NCBI GenBank assembly: GCA_951406725.2
Contig: OX597824.1
Location: 12,214,001-12,278,000, forward strand
Direction: 5' to 3'
Source: Octopus vulgaris
Lineage: Eukaryota
Length of the DNA: 64,000 nt
The position numbers were made by a program. Below, piece after piece: positions 24,001 through 39,000 of the stretch; within the stretch, counting starts at the first letter, position 1, and the number at the start of each line of letters is the position of its first letter.

Positions 24001-27000
24001 ATTACTTTGAAGCCCCACGTTAGTGTTATCAGTATTAATATTAACATCTAATGATATTAATCAAGTTCTAATACTGTCTTTCCATTATTTGCATAATTAT
24101 TTCTAGTTAGCTTTTTAATGCTTACTATGTTAAATATGTCAACCTCTAACCGACACTCTCTTATTACTAACCTCATGTCTTAGTAAGATTGGTGTAAAGC
24201 TAGAGAGGGTGGCAAGGGTTAGTGTACAGTCAATGGAACTTGCGTTGTTTTGTTTTAGATTCTTGGGTGCAATACTTTCATATGCAGCCTGGTTTTGTGT
24301 TCAAGAGAGAGATATGGCTGGCATAATATTCCATTTGCCTTCTCATGTTTGTCAAGCTGCACACACACACACACACTATCCATCTTTCTGTCCATATATA
24401 ATAAACAAATTTGCACAAATAGGCGTAGGAGTGGCTGTGTGTTAAGTAGCTTGCTTATGAACCACATGGTTCTGGGTTCAGTCCCACTGTGTGGCACCTT
24501 GGGCAAGTGTCTTCTACTATAGCCTCAGGCTGACCAAAGTCTTGTGAGTAGATTTGGTAGATGGAAACTGAAAGAAGCCTGTTGTATATATGTATATATA
24601 TATATATAGATGTATGTGTATGTATGTATATAGATGTATGTGTATGTATATATATATATATATATATATATATAGATGTATGTGCATGTCCCCCCCACCA
24701 AACATCACTTCACAACCGATGGTAGTGTGTTTACATCCCTGTAACTTAGCAGTTCGGCAAAAGAGACCGATAGCATAAGTACTAGGCTTCAAAAGAATAA
24801 GTCCTGGGGTCGATTTGTTCGACTAGATGAGGTGCTCCAGCATGACCACAGTCAAATGACTGAAACAAGTAAAAGAGTAAAGAGTATATGTAAGCATGTA
24901 TACATATCTGTATGTGTGTGCATGTGTATACATACACACACACAGAAACTGAAAAACTTCTCTGAACAAAACTAAATCAAAACCAAATTATTATTATATT
25001 TTTCCATAACCAAACTGAATTTTCAGTCAAAGATTATTAATAGCTCAAATCCAGAATTTAATCAATAGCATTTTCTTTTACCACATTCATATAGAGAAAA
25101 CAAGATTTACCAGCATTATAATTCACCCTATAAACATTTATATATTTGAATTTCGACTTCCCTGGTACCCATGCATCATGTATGATGCACAAACCCAATT
25201 TCTTTCAACCCTCAGAGTAACTTGGAACTTTACAAATGCCAAGTTTTATATTACTCATAACATATAAGACAACAGCTAACGAAAAGTCTATAACGAGCAT
25301 GGATGTTTAATGACAAACTTATGAAAATGCTTTGGACAGGGAGAGGGTTAAGCCCTTTTTTTTGTCTTTCTGCATTATCATTTGTTTCTATCTCTGTTTC
25401 CTTGCAAGCCTGGGTTGGATGATAAAGTCATTTCACGATAAGATCTTATTCCTAATATTAATAATTTAACTGTGGATTAGAAAAGGTGTCTAGCTTTATC
25501 AGGCAAGTTGAGTGATGGATTTGTGTCTAATTATTTCTTCATGCTTATACAAGAAGGTAAATATTGACTTAATAAATGCCATGAAATAGTCTCTCCAAAC
25601 TTGTAATGGATCAATAAAGACTTGAAACTGTTGGACTTAAAAAGTGAAAAAAGAGAAAAAAAAGAGAAAAAAAAATAGAGAATGAAGGTCATGATGTTTG
25701 TGTTTTTCCCTAAAGTTATTAGTATTTTGAGGGAATTGGCACAAAGATTGAAACCAGGAGAGACAGGGGTCACAAATGTGGTTTGCCACAAAAACTTACC
25801 ACAGTCCTATTGCTTTATTCATAATTTCCCCTTCTGACAGTCACTTGCTACACAGACACACGGCCTCATATGTATATGCAAAATTTAAGCTTTATTTCGT
25901 CTCATATTTCTTCTATTAGTTTTTTGAAGCCCATATTTATTCCTCCTCCTCCTCATTATCATTCATTTATACACATCCCATCCTAATTTATGCACGTCTA
26001 ATTTGTCATTAGTTTTTGTAAAACTGTGAGTGTTTTCTGTGAGGAGAAAGTTGCCAGCCCAATATCTAAACTCTGTCTCTTGAGAGAGGATGTCATATCA
26101 ACAAAATGATTGGTTTGTACTCACCACAAGACAATAATAAAACACTTGTGTCTTTTTTAGTTTTACCATTACCTAAAGTGTAAAGTAACAGCAAAACTGT
26201 TACACTACCCTGTGGTGCATATTTACAGTAGATGGACAGAGCTCTTGACTGTTAAGTGCCTTGGTAATGGACATAACTATGAACAATGGTACTCTATAAA
26301 TTTGTGGTCCAAAAATCTTTTATATCTTGCAGTACTGGCTTGATTGTATTCAAACCTGTACAAAGAACTTATTGCTTACAGTAGAGAATGGTACCCCTTG
26401 ATTTTCTGCATATAATGTGAGGAATGGTAACACACAATTTCACTGAGAAGGAAGAAGGAAGTTGGACATGAAAACCAAGAAAATAACCATTTACAGTTTG
26501 GTAAATACAAGAACACATATAGAAAAAAAAAACAATGTGTCTTAGTTCTTGAGTAACACAGTGCTGCACAGCAATACTAGAAATTGGATAAAAATTGTGG
26601 GGGTGGAGACGAGAGGGGTGGGAAACAGCTGCAGTGAAATAGGGACAGATATTTTCATAGTTAGTCTGAAAAAGGGTTTTGGTGGAAGTAGTGGGGAAGA
26701 CAGACATAAGTCATGACAAACTTCACAGGATTTTCAAAAGACTTCGGCAAATTTACCTTCATCTCAAGCTAGGAAGGAAGAAAATGAGATTAAAAATTGA
26801 TATTATCAAAAGAAGAATCAATAAGAATTTTTTTTTTCTTATTAACAATCATAGTTAAAAATTACTTTTTAGAATTATTAAAATTACATATTATCATGAA
26901 ATTATTAACATTAAGTATCAGAGTAATTAATAAAGGCCACCATTAACATCAATTACTATTAAAGTAGTAAAAGAGAGAATTGGTAAATACAGTACAATAT

Positions 27001-36000: not shown

Positions 36001-39000
36001 ACTAAAACCCACAAAGGTGCTGCAATATTATATATCTGATTATGTCCCATGGGGACTTCTCAAAACATAACAATATTAAAACTGTTTCATAAGGACTAAA
36101 AATTTCTCTTTAGGCCCAGCAACTATTTCAGTTCTGATTAGTAGCAGATCCTCTACTAAGCTCAATTAAAATGGACATCTGTTAGTTTCAATGATGAGTA
36201 TTTAGTTGCTAGGTCAACTGAACCATCTGTTCATTGAATTAGTAAATGTCTAGGCTGAGTATTCAACAGGCACGTGTTTCTTTAGGTACCCTTAATGTAA
36301 TTCTCAGACAGAATAAATATGATACAGTGTGGCAATGAACAACTTTTAAATTACCGATACAGTTTATCTGGTAGGCTTCAGCATAGTTTTTTGTCAACCC
36401 AGTATCACTCACAAGGCTTGGGTTGAGCCCCATGCTAGGGTAAAAGACACTTATTCAAAACACTGTGCAATGGAGTCAAACTTGGGAGTTTGTCATTGCA
36501 TAGCCAACTTCTTAACTATCCAACTATTCAGGTTAAGTTAGATTCATATGTTAGTAATACCTACACATATATTGGATGATGCTGTGTTTACACTTGCAAA
36601 CATCCATGAATTATATCCATAGGAAATCATTGGATTGATCAGCAAAGATTCACTAATCAATAATGTCAACCACTAAGTAGGGTCTCTGTCAGTCGATGTT
36701 GACATGTATGTGCAAGCTTAGGCAGGGTATTTTTTAGAAAGACTGGCAATTGCCTATACAAGCAAGCCTGCCCTCTCCACATATTTGCAAACTAATGCTA
36801 ATGATACCACACTTATTTAATCTTCTGTGAACAAGCATAATCTATATGAAACCTGTATCCGATGTTTATCTAAGAGAAAAGCTGCCAACTTAAGCTGATA
36901 CAGCAGGCCACAAGTGCTGACACTGATACTGTCATCAGAACACAAAGGAGCAGAACAGATAATTTATTTCTTTATTGCTCACAAGGGGCTAAACGTAGAG
37001 GGGACAAACAAGCGGAACAGATAATGCAAGGGATCTCTTCTGTTCTTCTAACAGTCCCATCAATCCACAACTGTTGAGCCAGATTTTTTATTGACCCAGG
37101 AAAAGTTGACTTCAGCTGTATTTGAACTCAGAACACAGAGAAATGGACCAAATGCTGCAAAAAATGTTCTATCCATCACTCTAATGACTGCCAATACATC
37201 AATACACTGTTTGCATCAATCATAAGCTCACAGAATGTGCTATTTCTTTTATGGATGGAAGCACTCCGTCGGTTATGACGATGAGGGTTCCGGTTGATCC
37301 GAATCAACGGAACAGCCTGCTCGTGAAATTAACGTGTAAGTGGATGAGCACTCCACAGACACGTGCACCCTTAACGTAGTTCTCGGGGATATTCAGCGTG
37401 ACACAGAGAGTGACAAGGCCGGCCCCTTGAAATACAGGTACAACAGAAACAGGAAGTAAGAGTGAGAGAAAGTTGTGGTGAAAGAGTACAGCAGGGATCA
37501 CCACCATCCCCTGCCGGAGCCTCGTGGAGCTTTAGGTGTTTTCGCTCAATAAACACTCACAACGCCCGGTCTGGGGATCGAAACCGCGATCCTATGACCG
37601 CAAGTCCGCTGCCCTATCCACTGGGCCATTGCGCCTCCTATTTCTTTTATATGCGTCTTATGTCACTACCTCCACGGTCCTTATTCCTCTGCTCTACACA
37701 TCATCTCTACTCACATTCATCATTATCATCATCATCATCATTTAACATCCGCTTTCCATGCTAGCATGGGTTGGACAATTTGACTAAGGGCTGGCGAACC
37801 AGATGGCTGCACCAGGCTCCAATCTTGATCTGGCAGAGTTTCTACAGCTGGATGCCCTTCCTATCGCCAACCACTCCGAGAGTGTAATGGGTGCTTTTTA
37901 CATGCCACTGGCACAGGTGCTAGTAAGGCGACGCTGGTAACAATCACGCTCGAATGGTGCCTTTTACGTGCCACCGGCACGGAGGCAAGTTAGCCACTCT
38001 GGCAACGATCACGCTCTGATGGTGCTCTTAGCACCCTACTAGCACAGGCACAAGTGCCAGTGTCTCCTCCTGTAACCTCTACTATGTCTCACCACCCAAA
38101 TTCTTCTTTTCCCAAACTGCATTATTCCAGAAGTCAACCCATATTTTTGTTTTCTAATGAAAACAACTACAGAAGTTCGAACTGAGCATCCATCAGCTGC
38201 ATCAGTCTTCTCAGCTTGGGTTTCATAGGAATTTCTCCTTTTGTCTAATTAAAAACAACAACAACAACAAAACCAAAACCAAGCTTCTAAAAGCAAATTC
38301 GGTAAATAACTTTACCGAAAACAAGCTGGTTAGGCATAGCAAATGTTAGTCTTTTTTTCTACAGAATTCTACATATCAGTTTATCATATCTTCATAGTGT
38401 TATGCAAAACTATTCCATGAACGACATTACGGTAATTAGTGTTAATATAAGTTGCAGTAGTTGTAGTGGTAGCATCGTTATTATTGTGATTAACACATTC
38501 AATTACATTATTACTGTTATTATTAAAGCAAGCAATAAATTGGACAGAGACTAAAATATTAGATGGTATTCCCAGAATTTGCTGATTATAATCAGTAACA
38601 ATGAAAATACAAGATGGCTGAGTGAGTGTATATATGTATACATTATATATATATATATATATATATATATATATGGACGCTAAACGATGATGATGATGAT
38701 ATATAATTATATATATATATATATATATACGGATGCTAAACGATGATGATTATGATGATGATAATAATATATATATATATATATATATATATGGATGCTA
38801 AACGATGATGATGATGATAATAATATATATATATATATATATATGAAACGATGATGATTATGATGATGATAATAATATATATATATATATATATATATAT
38901 GGATGCTAAACGATGATGATTATGATGATGATAATAATATATATATATATATATATATATATCGGATGCTAAACGATGATGATTATGATGATGATAATAA

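What the first reader, a model, noticed from the sequence alone, without database searches (positions are those of the whole stretch)
26757..38325. Candidate microexon cassette that could remodel the calpain loop between catalytic His and Asn
Seen: the phase-0 intron between the GHAYS exon and the RNPWG exon is 21 kb, several times longer than the other introns here. It contains repeat-poor islands (about 38150-38620, 33700-35390, 24950-27100). These islands hold tiny AG...GT-bounded units on the sense strand: 10 nt (38316-38325), 17 nt (34969-34985), 18 nt (34631-34648) and 12 nt (26757-26768). Joined in order they read LVFGEVNGP-AEIPSY-LEMK with no stop and restore frame. Known: this position is a surface hairpin of PC2 next to the active site, and bilaterian microexon programs use UGC (Srrm/eMIC) and ACUAAY (Quaking/How) motifs, both found here. 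Inference: a combinatorial, tissue-regulated insert tuning protease activity that ordinary annotation would miss.
Basis: partly seen in the sequence, partly recalled or inferred. Interest (0 to 1): 0.78.

Follow-up and report, generated by a model that had tools for sequence, protein, structure and literature searches.

The report
Octopus calpain 18-base alternative microexon
One of the four tiny candidate exons is a real alternative 18-base exon, already in public gene models, that lengthens a surface loop of an octopus calpain protease; two of the others look like chance and one remains an untested candidate.

Summary
The window holds part of a classical calpain gene (minus strand) of an Octopus vulgaris-like genome. 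The four-unit chain carries no weight. The intron has 1,646 such units and about 2.8e10 four-unit chains that keep the frame open.

The 18-nt unit (34631-34648, AEIPSY) is a real cassette microexon. Octopus sinensis calpain-A isoform X2 reads ...CCKF-AEIPSY-VEIE..., an O. bimaculoides model also carries AEIPSY, and other isoforms join KF|VE directly. It has a UCUCUGC element 18 nt upstream and a 40-nt AG-free zone.

The 10- and 17-nt units score at chance level. The 12-nt unit (LEMK) has the best splice-site pair in the intron but appears in none of 274 proteins examined, so it is undecided.

The insert lies in the hairpin between the catalytic His and Asn. This is the counterpart of the CAPN5 PC2L2 loop, which is remote from the active site yet affects activity (PMC7001764).

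The parts
39596..39676 (-). Constitutive calpain exon (81 nt, phase 0/0) encoding ADPSQ...GHAYSITCCKF, with the catalytic His
   Evidence: 100% match to O. vulgaris/O. sinensis calpain models, AG/GT sites. His314 is invariant in alignment A1.
18623..39595 (-). 20,973-nt phase-0 intron. With the microexon it splits into 4,947 nt (34649-39595) and 16,008 nt (18623-34630).
   Evidence: No Rfam family, no Pfam domain in 19 ORFs of 90 aa or more, no tRNA. 27.7% is covered by within-window repeats.
34631..34648 (-). Alternative 18-nt cassette microexon encoding AEIPSY
   Evidence: caaag|GCTGAGATTCCTAGCTAT|gtaagc. Present in P0001 (O. sinensis isoform X2) and P0002 (O. bimaculoides), absent from P0003-P0005. 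Splice scores lie within the range of real exons. AG-free zone 40 nt.
34664..34670 (-). UCUCUGC element 18 nt upstream of the microexon acceptor; a candidate Srrm/eMIC-type intronic enhancer
   Evidence: The arrangement (UCUC|CUCU)N0-5 UGC N5-35 AG occurs at 7 of 801 unit acceptors on the sense strand, and 3 of those 7 are this exon's own AGs. Published architecture: bioRxiv 10.1101/2024.09.17.613571; PMC8797185. Its function here is inferred.
18525..18622 (-). Constitutive calpain exon (98 nt) encoding [32 protein letters not shown]., with the catalytic Asn
   Evidence: Asn348 (P0001 numbering) is invariant in A1.
26757..26768 (-). 12-nt in-frame unit (LEMK): an untested candidate second microexon, or a strong decoy
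   Evidence: It is the only one of 1,646 units with 5'ss 6/7 or better, 17/20 or more pyrimidines and YAG. 1 of 200 shuffles reaches this level, and none do on the antisense strand or in 7 other introns. AG-free zone 67 nt. Against: one equally strong pair lies on the plus strand at 58894-58913, there is no UGC within 60 nt upstream, and it is in none of the proteins seen.
34969..34985 (-). 17-nt AG..GT unit: chance-level, shifts the frame alone
   Evidence: 4 units as good; shuffles 4.3 +/- 2.2; antisense 4. AG-free zone 18 nt, shorter than all 9 real acceptors.
38316..38325 (-). 10-nt AG..GT unit: chance-level, shifts the frame alone
   Evidence: 94 units as good; shuffles 111 +/- 13. Its 5'ss score of 3 is below all 9 constitutive exons whose donor was read correctly and the verified microexon (4-6; one further row was scored one base off).

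Best explanation
The window carries nine constitutive exons, plus the microexon, of a classical calpain gene (Peptidase_C2 + Calpain_III + EF-hands) of an Octopus vulgaris-like genome, on the minus strand.

Inside the 21-kb intron between the His exon and the Asn exon lies one genuine alternative cassette microexon of 18 nt (34631-34648). Including it inserts AEIPSY between F323 and V324 of the skip isoform. This lengthens the stretch between the GHAYS motif (catalytic His) and the NPWG motif (catalytic Asn) from 24 to 30 residues.

Shown: the exon, its canonical splice sites, and annotated isoforms with and without it.

Inferred:

- Its inclusion is promoted by an Srrm/eMIC-type mechanism, based on the UCUCUGC element 18 nt upstream, a weak 'caaag' acceptor and a 40-nt AG-free zone.
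- The insert loosens the outer half of the His-Asn beta-hairpin. This is the counterpart of the CAPN5 PC2L2 loop, which tunes activity remotely rather than touching the catalytic site.

The 10-nt and 17-nt units are chance AG..GT pairs. The 12-nt unit is more likely a decoy than an exon, but that is not settled. The four-unit cassette as proposed does not exist as a unit.
For: -: P0001 (O. sinensis calpain-A isoform X2) reads [27 protein letters not shown], and P0002 (O. bimaculoides XP_014784861.1) reads ..AEIPSYVEIETP... P0003/P0004 (O. vulgaris) and P0005 (O. sinensis isoform X8) join KF|VE directly.
- the window encodes AEIPSY exactly, with AG/GT sites scoring inside the range of the gene's real exons.
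- the UCUC-UGC-AG arrangement is rare (7 of 801 acceptors) and present here. describe this architecture for Srrm3/4 and eMIC exons.
- the exon's acceptor plus first 9 nt is the single best match (10 of 12 free positions) to the downstream exon's acceptor among 1,033 AG sites of the intron and 7,032 of the window.
- the spacer is 24 residues in 119 of 124 relatives, 30 in P0001 and 32 in an abalone isoform with an insert in the same slot.
- AlphaFold2 gives a regular hairpin in the skip isoform (strands 315-327 and 332-341). In the inclusion isoform the strand ends at 323 and residues 326-331 fall below pLDDT 50.
- PC2L2 of CAPN5 connects the strands bearing His252 and Asn284, is solvent-exposed, and a G267S change in it makes the enzyme hyperactive.
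- the 10- and 17-nt units are at chance level.
Against: - I could not see any transcript. The evidence for use of the exon is its presence in NCBI computed models of two species, and one model could in principle have been seeded by the other.
- The O. bimaculoides model is faulty upstream. It uses an intronic ORF in place of the His exon.
- Cluster members (other isoforms) could not be listed, so isoforms carrying the 12-nt unit may exist unseen.
- The 12-nt unit has the best splice-site pair in the intron and begins L-E-M, like V-E-I and A-E-I (7 of 337 in-frame units have this pattern). This argues that 'decoy' may be wrong.
- The eMIC reading rests on a short motif. Tissue data are lacking.
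- The AlphaFold2 loop is of low confidence, so the structural effect is a prediction of flexibility, not a structure.
Confidence: 0.72

Rival explanations
1. Two alternative microexons share this junction: the annotated 18-nt exon (AEIPSY) and an unannotated 12-nt exon (LEMK, 26757-26768). Together they would give His-Asn spacers of 24, 28, 30 or 34 residues.
For: -: the 12-nt unit is the only one of 1,646 with sites as strong as the best constitutive exon. 1 of 200 shuffles reaches this level, and none do on the antisense strand or in 7 other introns.
- 0.016 such pairs are expected from the intron's own counts of strong sites.
- its AG-free zone is 67 nt (top 3.5% of AG sites).
- it is in frame and starts hydrophobic-acidic-hydrophobic, as do the verified microexon and the downstream exon (7 of 337 units).
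- it lies in DNA that is unique within the window.
Against: -: LEMK is at this junction in 0 of 124 proteins, including the five octopus cluster representatives.
- an equally strong pair occurs on the plus strand at 58894-58913. That gives an empirical rate of roughly one per 107 kb of control sequence, or about 0.2 per intron.
- there is no UGC within 60 nt upstream and no eMIC-like arrangement.
- Sites this strong would be expected to give frequent inclusion, which the models do not show (inference).
Confidence: 0.22
2. One reading: all four units (10, 17, 18, 12 nt) are microexons used combinatorially.
For: All four are AG..GT-bounded, lie in within-window-unique DNA and together keep the frame. 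The 10-nt unit has a consensus-like branch site (ACTAAC) 25 nt upstream.
Against: -: about 2.8e10 four-unit chains in this intron keep the frame open.
- the 10- and 17-nt units are at chance level.
- the 10-nt unit's 5'ss score (3) is below every real exon scored correctly (4-6), and the 17-nt unit's AG-free zone (18 nt) is below every real acceptor.
- Each of these two shifts the frame unless the other is co-included, and they lie 3.3 kb apart.
- motifs from them are in 0 of 124 proteins.
Confidence: 0.02
3. No microexon is used: AEIPSY in the gene models is an annotation artefact carried from one species' model to another.
For: I saw no transcript data. The O. bimaculoides model is visibly wrong just upstream of AEIPSY. 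O. bimaculoides intron sequence is about 82% identical at the protein level to this window, so conservation of six codons alone proves little.
Against: - An 18-nt exon with canonical sites, in frame, placed identically in models of two species, with skip isoforms annotated beside it in the same species.
- An eMIC-like upstream element.
- An abalone isoform with an insert in exactly the same slot.
- From my own knowledge, NCBI's pipeline normally creates alternative isoforms only where transcripts support them. I did not check this here.
Confidence: 0.04

Closest known systems
PC2L2 loop of human CAPN5/CAPN6 (Velez et al. 2020, PMC7001764; passages read)
   Same: It is the same structural place: the loop joining the two beta-strands that carry the catalytic His and Asn. 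It is elongated relative to classical calpains and solvent-exposed. With AEIPSY the octopus spacer (30) aligns without a gap to an unnamed 645-aa calpain that also has a 30-residue spacer. The paper shows the loop influences activity at a distance and proposes loop changes as a way of tuning calpains.
   Different: PC2L2 is constitutive and paralogue-specific. Here loop length is switched by alternative splicing within one classical calpain gene. The sequences are unrelated, and no activity data exist for the octopus isoforms.
IS1 insertion of CAPN3 (alternatively spliced exon 6)
   Same: It is an alternatively spliced insert inside the PC2 half of a calpain protease core (from my own knowledge).
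   Different: IS1 is about 48 residues long and lies before the catalytic His. In one search the CAPN3 chains align to P0001 only up to residue 313, just before His314. The octopus insert is 6 residues and lies after the His.
Srrm234/eMIC-dependent neural microexons of bilaterians (PMC8797185; bioRxiv 10.1101/2024.09.17.613571; passages read)
   Same: The exon is 18 nt, frame-preserving and falls in a surface loop. Upstream there are UCUC tracts, a UGC 18 nt from the AG, a long AG-free zone and a weak acceptor context.
   Different: Neural inclusion and dependence on Srrm234 were not tested. Neither 'calpain', 'CalpA' nor 'CalpB' occurs in the main text of PMC8797185; the 2024 preprint was not searched for calpain.
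Haliotis rufescens calpain-B-like isoform X5 (P0035)
   Same: It has an 8-residue insert (MDIVLPRR) in exactly the same alignment slot, after the residue matching F323. Like AEIPSY, the insert starts with residues resembling the start of the following segment (MDI vs IDV; AEI vs VEI).
   Different: The sequence and length differ. I could not check whether the abalone insert is a separate exon or is alternatively used.

Membership tests
Classical calpain (large subunit) | Peptidase_C2 core, Calpain_III (CBSW) domain and C-terminal EF-hand (PEF) domain | tested here: met
   P0001 matches PF00648 over 104-405 (E 4.7e-127), PF01067 over 430-565 and EF-hand models at 740-797. E 2e-235 to chain 1qxp_A. 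The window supplies the exons for residues 133-574.
Classical calpain (large subunit) | Catalytic Cys, His and Asn present | tested here: met
   H314 and N348 are invariant and C158 is 90% or more conserved in 43 sequences. The window encodes GDCWLL, GHAYS and RNPWG.
Alternative cassette microexon | Very short exon (30 nt or less) with canonical AG/GT sites that keeps the frame | tested here: met
   18 nt, AG|..|GTAAGC, six codons, no stop.
Alternative cassette microexon | Both inclusion and skipping products exist | tested here: met
   O. sinensis isoform X2 and isoform X8 (without). These are annotated protein models only, not transcripts.
Alternative cassette microexon | Junction-spanning transcript reads | not testable with these tools
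   No cephalopod RNA-seq or genome collection is on hand. A near-length protein search for short transcript-derived pieces found none. Cluster members could not be listed.
Srrm/eMIC-dependent neural microexon | UGC-containing enhancer between the pyrimidine tract and the AG, with a long AG-free zone | tested here: met
   UCUCUGC ends 16 nt before the AG and the AG-free zone is 40 nt. The arrangement occurs at 7 of 801 acceptors (9 of 908 on the antisense strand), so it is rare but not unique.
Srrm/eMIC-dependent neural microexon | Neuron-enriched inclusion that depends on Srrm234 | not testable with these tools
   No expression data are available.
   the 10-nt unit has 94 equals (shuffles 111 +/- 13) and the 17-nt unit has 4 (4.3 +/- 2.2). 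Only the 18-nt (16 vs 7 +/- 3) and 12-nt (1 vs 0.005) units exceed background.
   AEIPSY is in 2 of 124 proteins. LEMK, LVFGE and EVNGP are in 0 of 124. The 150 representatives were examined for spacer length only.
PC2L2-type regulatory loop | Lies between the strands bearing the catalytic His and Asn, and is surface-exposed and flexible | tested here: met
   position; pLDDT below 50 for residues 326-331. Exposure is inferred from the model's low confidence and from PMC7001764.
PC2L2-type regulatory loop | Changes in the loop alter catalytic activity | not tested
   This needs enzyme assays of the two isoforms.

The most novel reading that the evidence does not exclude
Octopus calpain carries a splice-controlled 'length dial' on the remote regulatory loop between its catalytic His and Asn. 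Besides the annotated AEIPSY exon, the unannotated 12-nt LEMK unit would also be used, giving spacers of 24, 28, 30 and 34 residues. An insert in the same slot in abalone would mean the dial is old in molluscs, and each microexon would have arisen by copying the start of the downstream exon.
Probability: 0.15. Interest if true: 0.6.

Novelty: new member of a known kind. Interest (0 to 1): 0.35.

Why it matters
The loop between the catalytic His and Asn was shown in human CAPN5 to influence activity from about 43 A away, and its authors proposed that evolution tunes calpains by changing such loops (PMC7001764). The octopus gene offers a natural test. Two isoforms of one enzyme differ only by six residues in that loop, so comparing their Ca2+ dependence and kinetics would test the idea directly.

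It also adds a protease to the targets of microexon splicing in a lophotrochozoan. The exon itself is already in public gene models, so the gain is in interpretation, not in discovering an exon.

Tried and rejected
- the 32-aa exon was too short for the protein search. I resent it as the unaltered stop-to-stop ORF.
- a near-length search for short transcript-derived peptides spanning the junction found none.
- no Rfam family, no tRNA, and no Pfam domain in 34 long ORFs of the intron and window. There is no nested gene or recognisable transposon protein.
- no recursive splice site (YAG|GTRAGT) in the window (0 matches, 2.3 expected).
- RNA folding of the microexon +/-70 nt is unremarkable (z = -0.02).
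- a free local alignment of the microexon region to the downstream exon start is not significant (score 18, shuffles 17.0 +/- 2.7, 35% as good). Only the in-register comparison stands out, and that test was chosen after I had seen AEI/VEI.
- I considered that AEI replaces VEI in the strand so that the register is kept. The AlphaFold2 model does not show this. The strand ends at F323 and the insert is low-confidence coil.
- a 13-residue tblastn hit at 5992-6030 (E about 4) proved to be AT-rich sequence without splice sites.
- structure prediction was not accepted at first. It ran later. Model coordinates are not exposed, so I could not measure the distance from the insert to the active site.
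- Literature: 'microexon'+'calpain' (24 papers, 15 listed), 'microexon'+'octopus' (4 papers), 'calpain'+'alternative splicing'+'cephalopod' (9 papers) and 'calpain'+'Octopus vulgaris'+'isoform' (9 papers). No listed title or abstract start, and no passage I read, describes this exon.

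
Full report
WHAT IS IN THE WINDOW. The window has no N and is 36% G+C. I searched with the unaltered stop-to-stop ORF around the downstream exon (window:18524-18715:-). This returned cephalopod calpains: Octopus sinensis calpain-A isoform X2 (P0001, 835 aa), O. bimaculoides XP_014784861.1 (P0002), O. vulgaris calpain-B-like isoform X15 and calpain-B isoform X1 (P0003, P0004), O. 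sinensis calpain-9 isoform X8 (P0005), and Argonauta and cuttlefish-like sequences.

tblastn of these records against the window, followed by reading the exon ends, gives these minus-strand exons:

- 51455-51386
- 49176-48924
- 44247-44079
- 39676-39596
- 18622-18525
- 13424-13347
- 9157-8982
- 6937-6774
- 4399-4185

They cover residues 133-574 of P0001. Every exon body is identical to the O. vulgaris record. The O. sinensis record differs inside one exon (K versus M). The window is therefore O. vulgaris or a very close relative. P0001 has Peptidase_C2, Calpain_III and EF-hand domains and matches solved calpains at E 2e-235. Searches with window sequence were made exon by exon, and the full-length queries were the database records.

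THE OBSERVATION.

- The His exon (39596-39676) ends ..GHAYSITCCKF in phase 0, and the Asn exon (18525-18622) begins [10 protein letters not shown].
- The intron is 20,973 nt, against 2,044-5,100 nt for the seven other introns in the window.
- All four units are bounded by AG and GT at the stated coordinates, and their lengths sum to 57 nt.
- The three 'islands' have no second copy within the window. This is only a proxy for repeat content, and other stretches (for example 18623-19870, 20870-22120, 35620-36870) are just as unique.

IS IT MORE THAN CHANCE? The chain is not. The sense strand of the intron holds 1,646 AG..GT units of 3-30 nt, and 428 of them keep the frame on their own. There are about 2.4e5 two-unit, 9.6e7 three-unit and 2.8e10 four-unit ordered chains that restore the frame without a stop. 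The motif argument is also weak. UGC lies within 40 nt upstream of 43% of 1,628 units, and ACUAAY within 200 nt of 29%.

I scored splice sites in a simple, transparent way: matches to MAG|GTRAGT out of 7, pyrimidines in -23..-4 out of 20, and Y at -3. I then compared with 200 dinucleotide shuffles, the antisense strand and the other introns.

| Unit | Units at least as good on both sites | Shuffles | Other controls |
|---|---|---|---|
| 10 nt | 94 | 111 +/- 13 | |
| 17 nt | 4 | 4.3 +/- 2.2 | antisense 4 |
| 18 nt | 16 | 7 +/- 3 | antisense 10 |
| 12 nt | 1 (itself) | 1 of 200 shuffles has any | none on the antisense strand or in seven other introns |

The gene's real exons score 4-6 and 12-19 on the two measures; this leaves out the donor of exon 49176-48924, which one search scored one base off (2). 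AG-free zones upstream of real acceptors are 23-81 nt. The four units have 23 (10 nt), 18 (17 nt), 40 (18 nt) and 67 nt (12 nt). The 10- and 17-nt units therefore look like background. Each also shifts the frame unless the other, 3.3 kb away, is co-included.

WHAT IS REALLY THERE. P0001 reads [27 protein letters not shown], and P0002 reads ..AEIPSYVEIETP... P0003, P0004 and P0005 join KF directly to VE. The window encodes AEIPSY exactly at 34631-34648. The 18-nt unit is thus a cassette microexon that public gene models already include, with skip and inclusion isoforms annotated in the same species.

I could not see the transcript evidence behind these models. The O. bimaculoides model is also faulty upstream: it uses an intronic ORF (window 42256-42492, 82% identical) in place of the His exon. 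A region-restricted search with P0001 residues 285-375 gave 471 hits, of which 120 were listed. Among the 124 proteins then held:

- the spacer between GHAYS and NPWG is 24 residues in 119;
- it is 30 in P0001;
- it is 32 in Haliotis rufescens calpain-B-like isoform X5 (P0035);
- it is 28 in one unnamed sequence;
- it is 20 (twice) in an Ascaris record;
- P0002 lacks the motif pair.

AEIPSY occurs in 2 of 124 proteins. LEMK and motifs from the 10/17-nt pair occur in 0 of 124. In a MAFFT alignment of 43 non-redundant sequences, the octopus and abalone inserts fall in the same slot, directly after the residue matching F323.

HOW THE EXON IS PROBABLY RECOGNISED (inference). Upstream of the microexon lie two UCUC tracts, a UGC 18 nt from the AG (UCUCUGC, 34670-34664), a 40-nt AG-free zone and a weak 'caaag' acceptor. 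Published descriptions match this:

- SRRM3/4-dependent microexons are described as having a pyrimidine tract and branch point set back from the AG, leaving room for a UCU_CUC[N1-50]_UGC enhancer (bioRxiv 10.1101/2024.09.17.613571, Introduction and Results passages).
- Fly eMIC exons are described as having long AG-exclusion zones, UGC near the 3' splice site, UCUC-rich tracts and strong CUAAY branch sites (PMC8797185, one Results passage and the abstract).

The strict arrangement (UCUC|CUCU)N0-5 UGC N5-35 AG is present at 7 of 801 unit acceptors on the sense strand, three of which are this exon's own AGs, and at 9 of 908 on the antisense strand. None of the other three units has it. Of the other acceptors with this arrangement, none gives an in-frame unit with a comparable donor in unique DNA. 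Neural or other tissue specificity is untested.

A POSSIBLE ORIGIN. The microexon's acceptor plus first nine bases (caaag|GCTGAGATT) is the single best match, at 10 of 12 free positions, to the downstream exon's acceptor (caaag|GTTGAAATT). This holds among 1,033 AG sites of the intron and 7,032 of the window on both strands. The abalone insert likewise begins like the segment that follows it (MDI.. then IDV..). This fits an origin by copying the start of the downstream exon, or selection for the same first residues. I chose this test after seeing AEI/VEI, and an unconstrained local alignment is not significant.

WHAT IT DOES TO THE PROTEIN. Against a solved mu-like calpain, the octopus segment between His and Asn aligns with gaps exactly at the hairpin tip. 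Across 150 representatives of the calpain superfamily, the spacer ranges from 16 to 32 residues (one of 73), with a mode of 20. This is based on 116 motif instances; 36 of the 150 had no motif pair. The tip is therefore a length-variable place.

AlphaFold2 on 43-sequence alignments gives the following.

- Skip isoform P0005: a regular hairpin, with strands 315-327 and 332-341 and block pLDDT of 76-82.
- Inclusion isoform P0001: a strand that stops at F323, and pLDDT below 50 for residues 326-331.

The predicted effect is a looser, longer outer hairpin, with the inner strands that carry His314 and Asn348 kept. The model does not support my idea that AEI takes over the strand register of VEI. 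Coordinates are not exposed, so I could not measure distances.

The closest precedent is the PC2L2 loop of human CAPN5. [quoted passage not shown] A G267S change in it makes the enzyme hyperactive, also after grafting the loop into rat CAPN1 ('across ~43 A'). The authors propose that calpains are tuned by modifying such loops. With AEIPSY, the octopus spacer equals that of an unnamed 645-aa calpain, to which it aligns without a gap. The likely mode of action is remote, or through a partner that binds this surface. Both are inferences.

THE 12-NT UNIT. This is the one open point.

In its favour:
- It has the best splice-site pair of the intron.
- From the intron's own 3 strong acceptors and 4 strong donors, 0.016 such pairs are expected.
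- It has a 67-nt AG-free zone.
- It is in frame, and it starts L-E-M like A-E-I and V-E-I (7 of 337 in-frame units on the sense strand, 2 of 457 on the antisense strand).

Against it:
- An equally strong pair lies on the plus strand at 58894-58913. The empirical rate in control sequence is thus about one per 107 kb, or roughly 0.2 per intron of this size.
- It has no UGC or eMIC-like element.
- It is in none of the proteins seen.

I put it at about one in four to be a real exon.

KNOWN OR NEW. The exon is already in NCBI models of two species. In the searchable literature, none of the titles, abstract starts and passages I saw describes it or any calpain microexon in cephalopods. A skin-mucus proteome paper reports 'calpain-9 isoform X8' of this gene rising in senescent O. 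vulgaris (PMC11431876, passages), which says nothing about the microexon.

What is new is the reading. A classical calpain switches the length of its PC2L2-equivalent loop by a microexon, and abalone has an insert in the same slot.

WHAT STAYED UNCHECKED. Transcript support, tissue pattern and cross-species conservation of the units could therefore not be tested.

VERDICT. Interest is modest (0.35).

Noticed in passing
window 42256-42492 (minus strand): An intronic ORF (..VLSVFSTLSFVFSILCF..) is used as a coding exon in the O. bimaculoides model XP_014784861.1 (P0002) in place of the His exon. That model therefore lacks the catalytic His, and is probably a mis-annotation. The window's copy is 82% identical to the model at the protein level and ends at a GTATGT donor.
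   Followed up: partly
outside the window (3' part of the gene); seen in P0003-P0005, P0007, P0008: A second tiny alternative segment of the same gene sits before the EF-hand domain. GSFV (4 aa) is present in P0004/P0005 and absent in P0003. GSAV is present in the cuttlefish-like P0008 and absent in P0007. This looks like a 12-nt microexon shared by octopus and cuttlefish.
   Followed up: partly
P0035 (Haliotis rufescens calpain-B-like isoform X5), residues about 367-374: An 8-residue insert (MDIVLPRR) lies in the same alignment slot as the octopus AEIPSY. It begins like the segment that follows it.
   Followed up: partly
window 38629-39331: A minisatellite of 56-72-nt units (about 10 copies, AT-rich with GATGAT runs) starts about 265 nt downstream of the His exon's donor site.
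   Followed up: no
window 30918-31328: A TG-rich array with a 105-107-nt higher-order period. It accounts for the long ORFs at 30845-31445 on both strands, which have no Pfam match.
   Followed up: no
window 58894-58913 (plus strand): A 20-nt AG..GT unit has splice-site scores as strong as the 12-nt candidate, on the strand opposite the calpain gene. I used it as an empirical decoy. I did not check whether a plus-strand transcript exists there.
   Followed up: no
window 46551-47146 and 52722-53061 (plus strand): Tandem arrays with 119-nt and 113-nt spacing were seen as repeated identical matches.
   Followed up: no
P0013 (Ascaris lumbricoides record, 520 aa): The His-to-Asn segment and its flanks occur twice in tandem in this record (His motifs at residues 255 and 341). 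This is possibly an assembly or model duplication.
   Followed up: no
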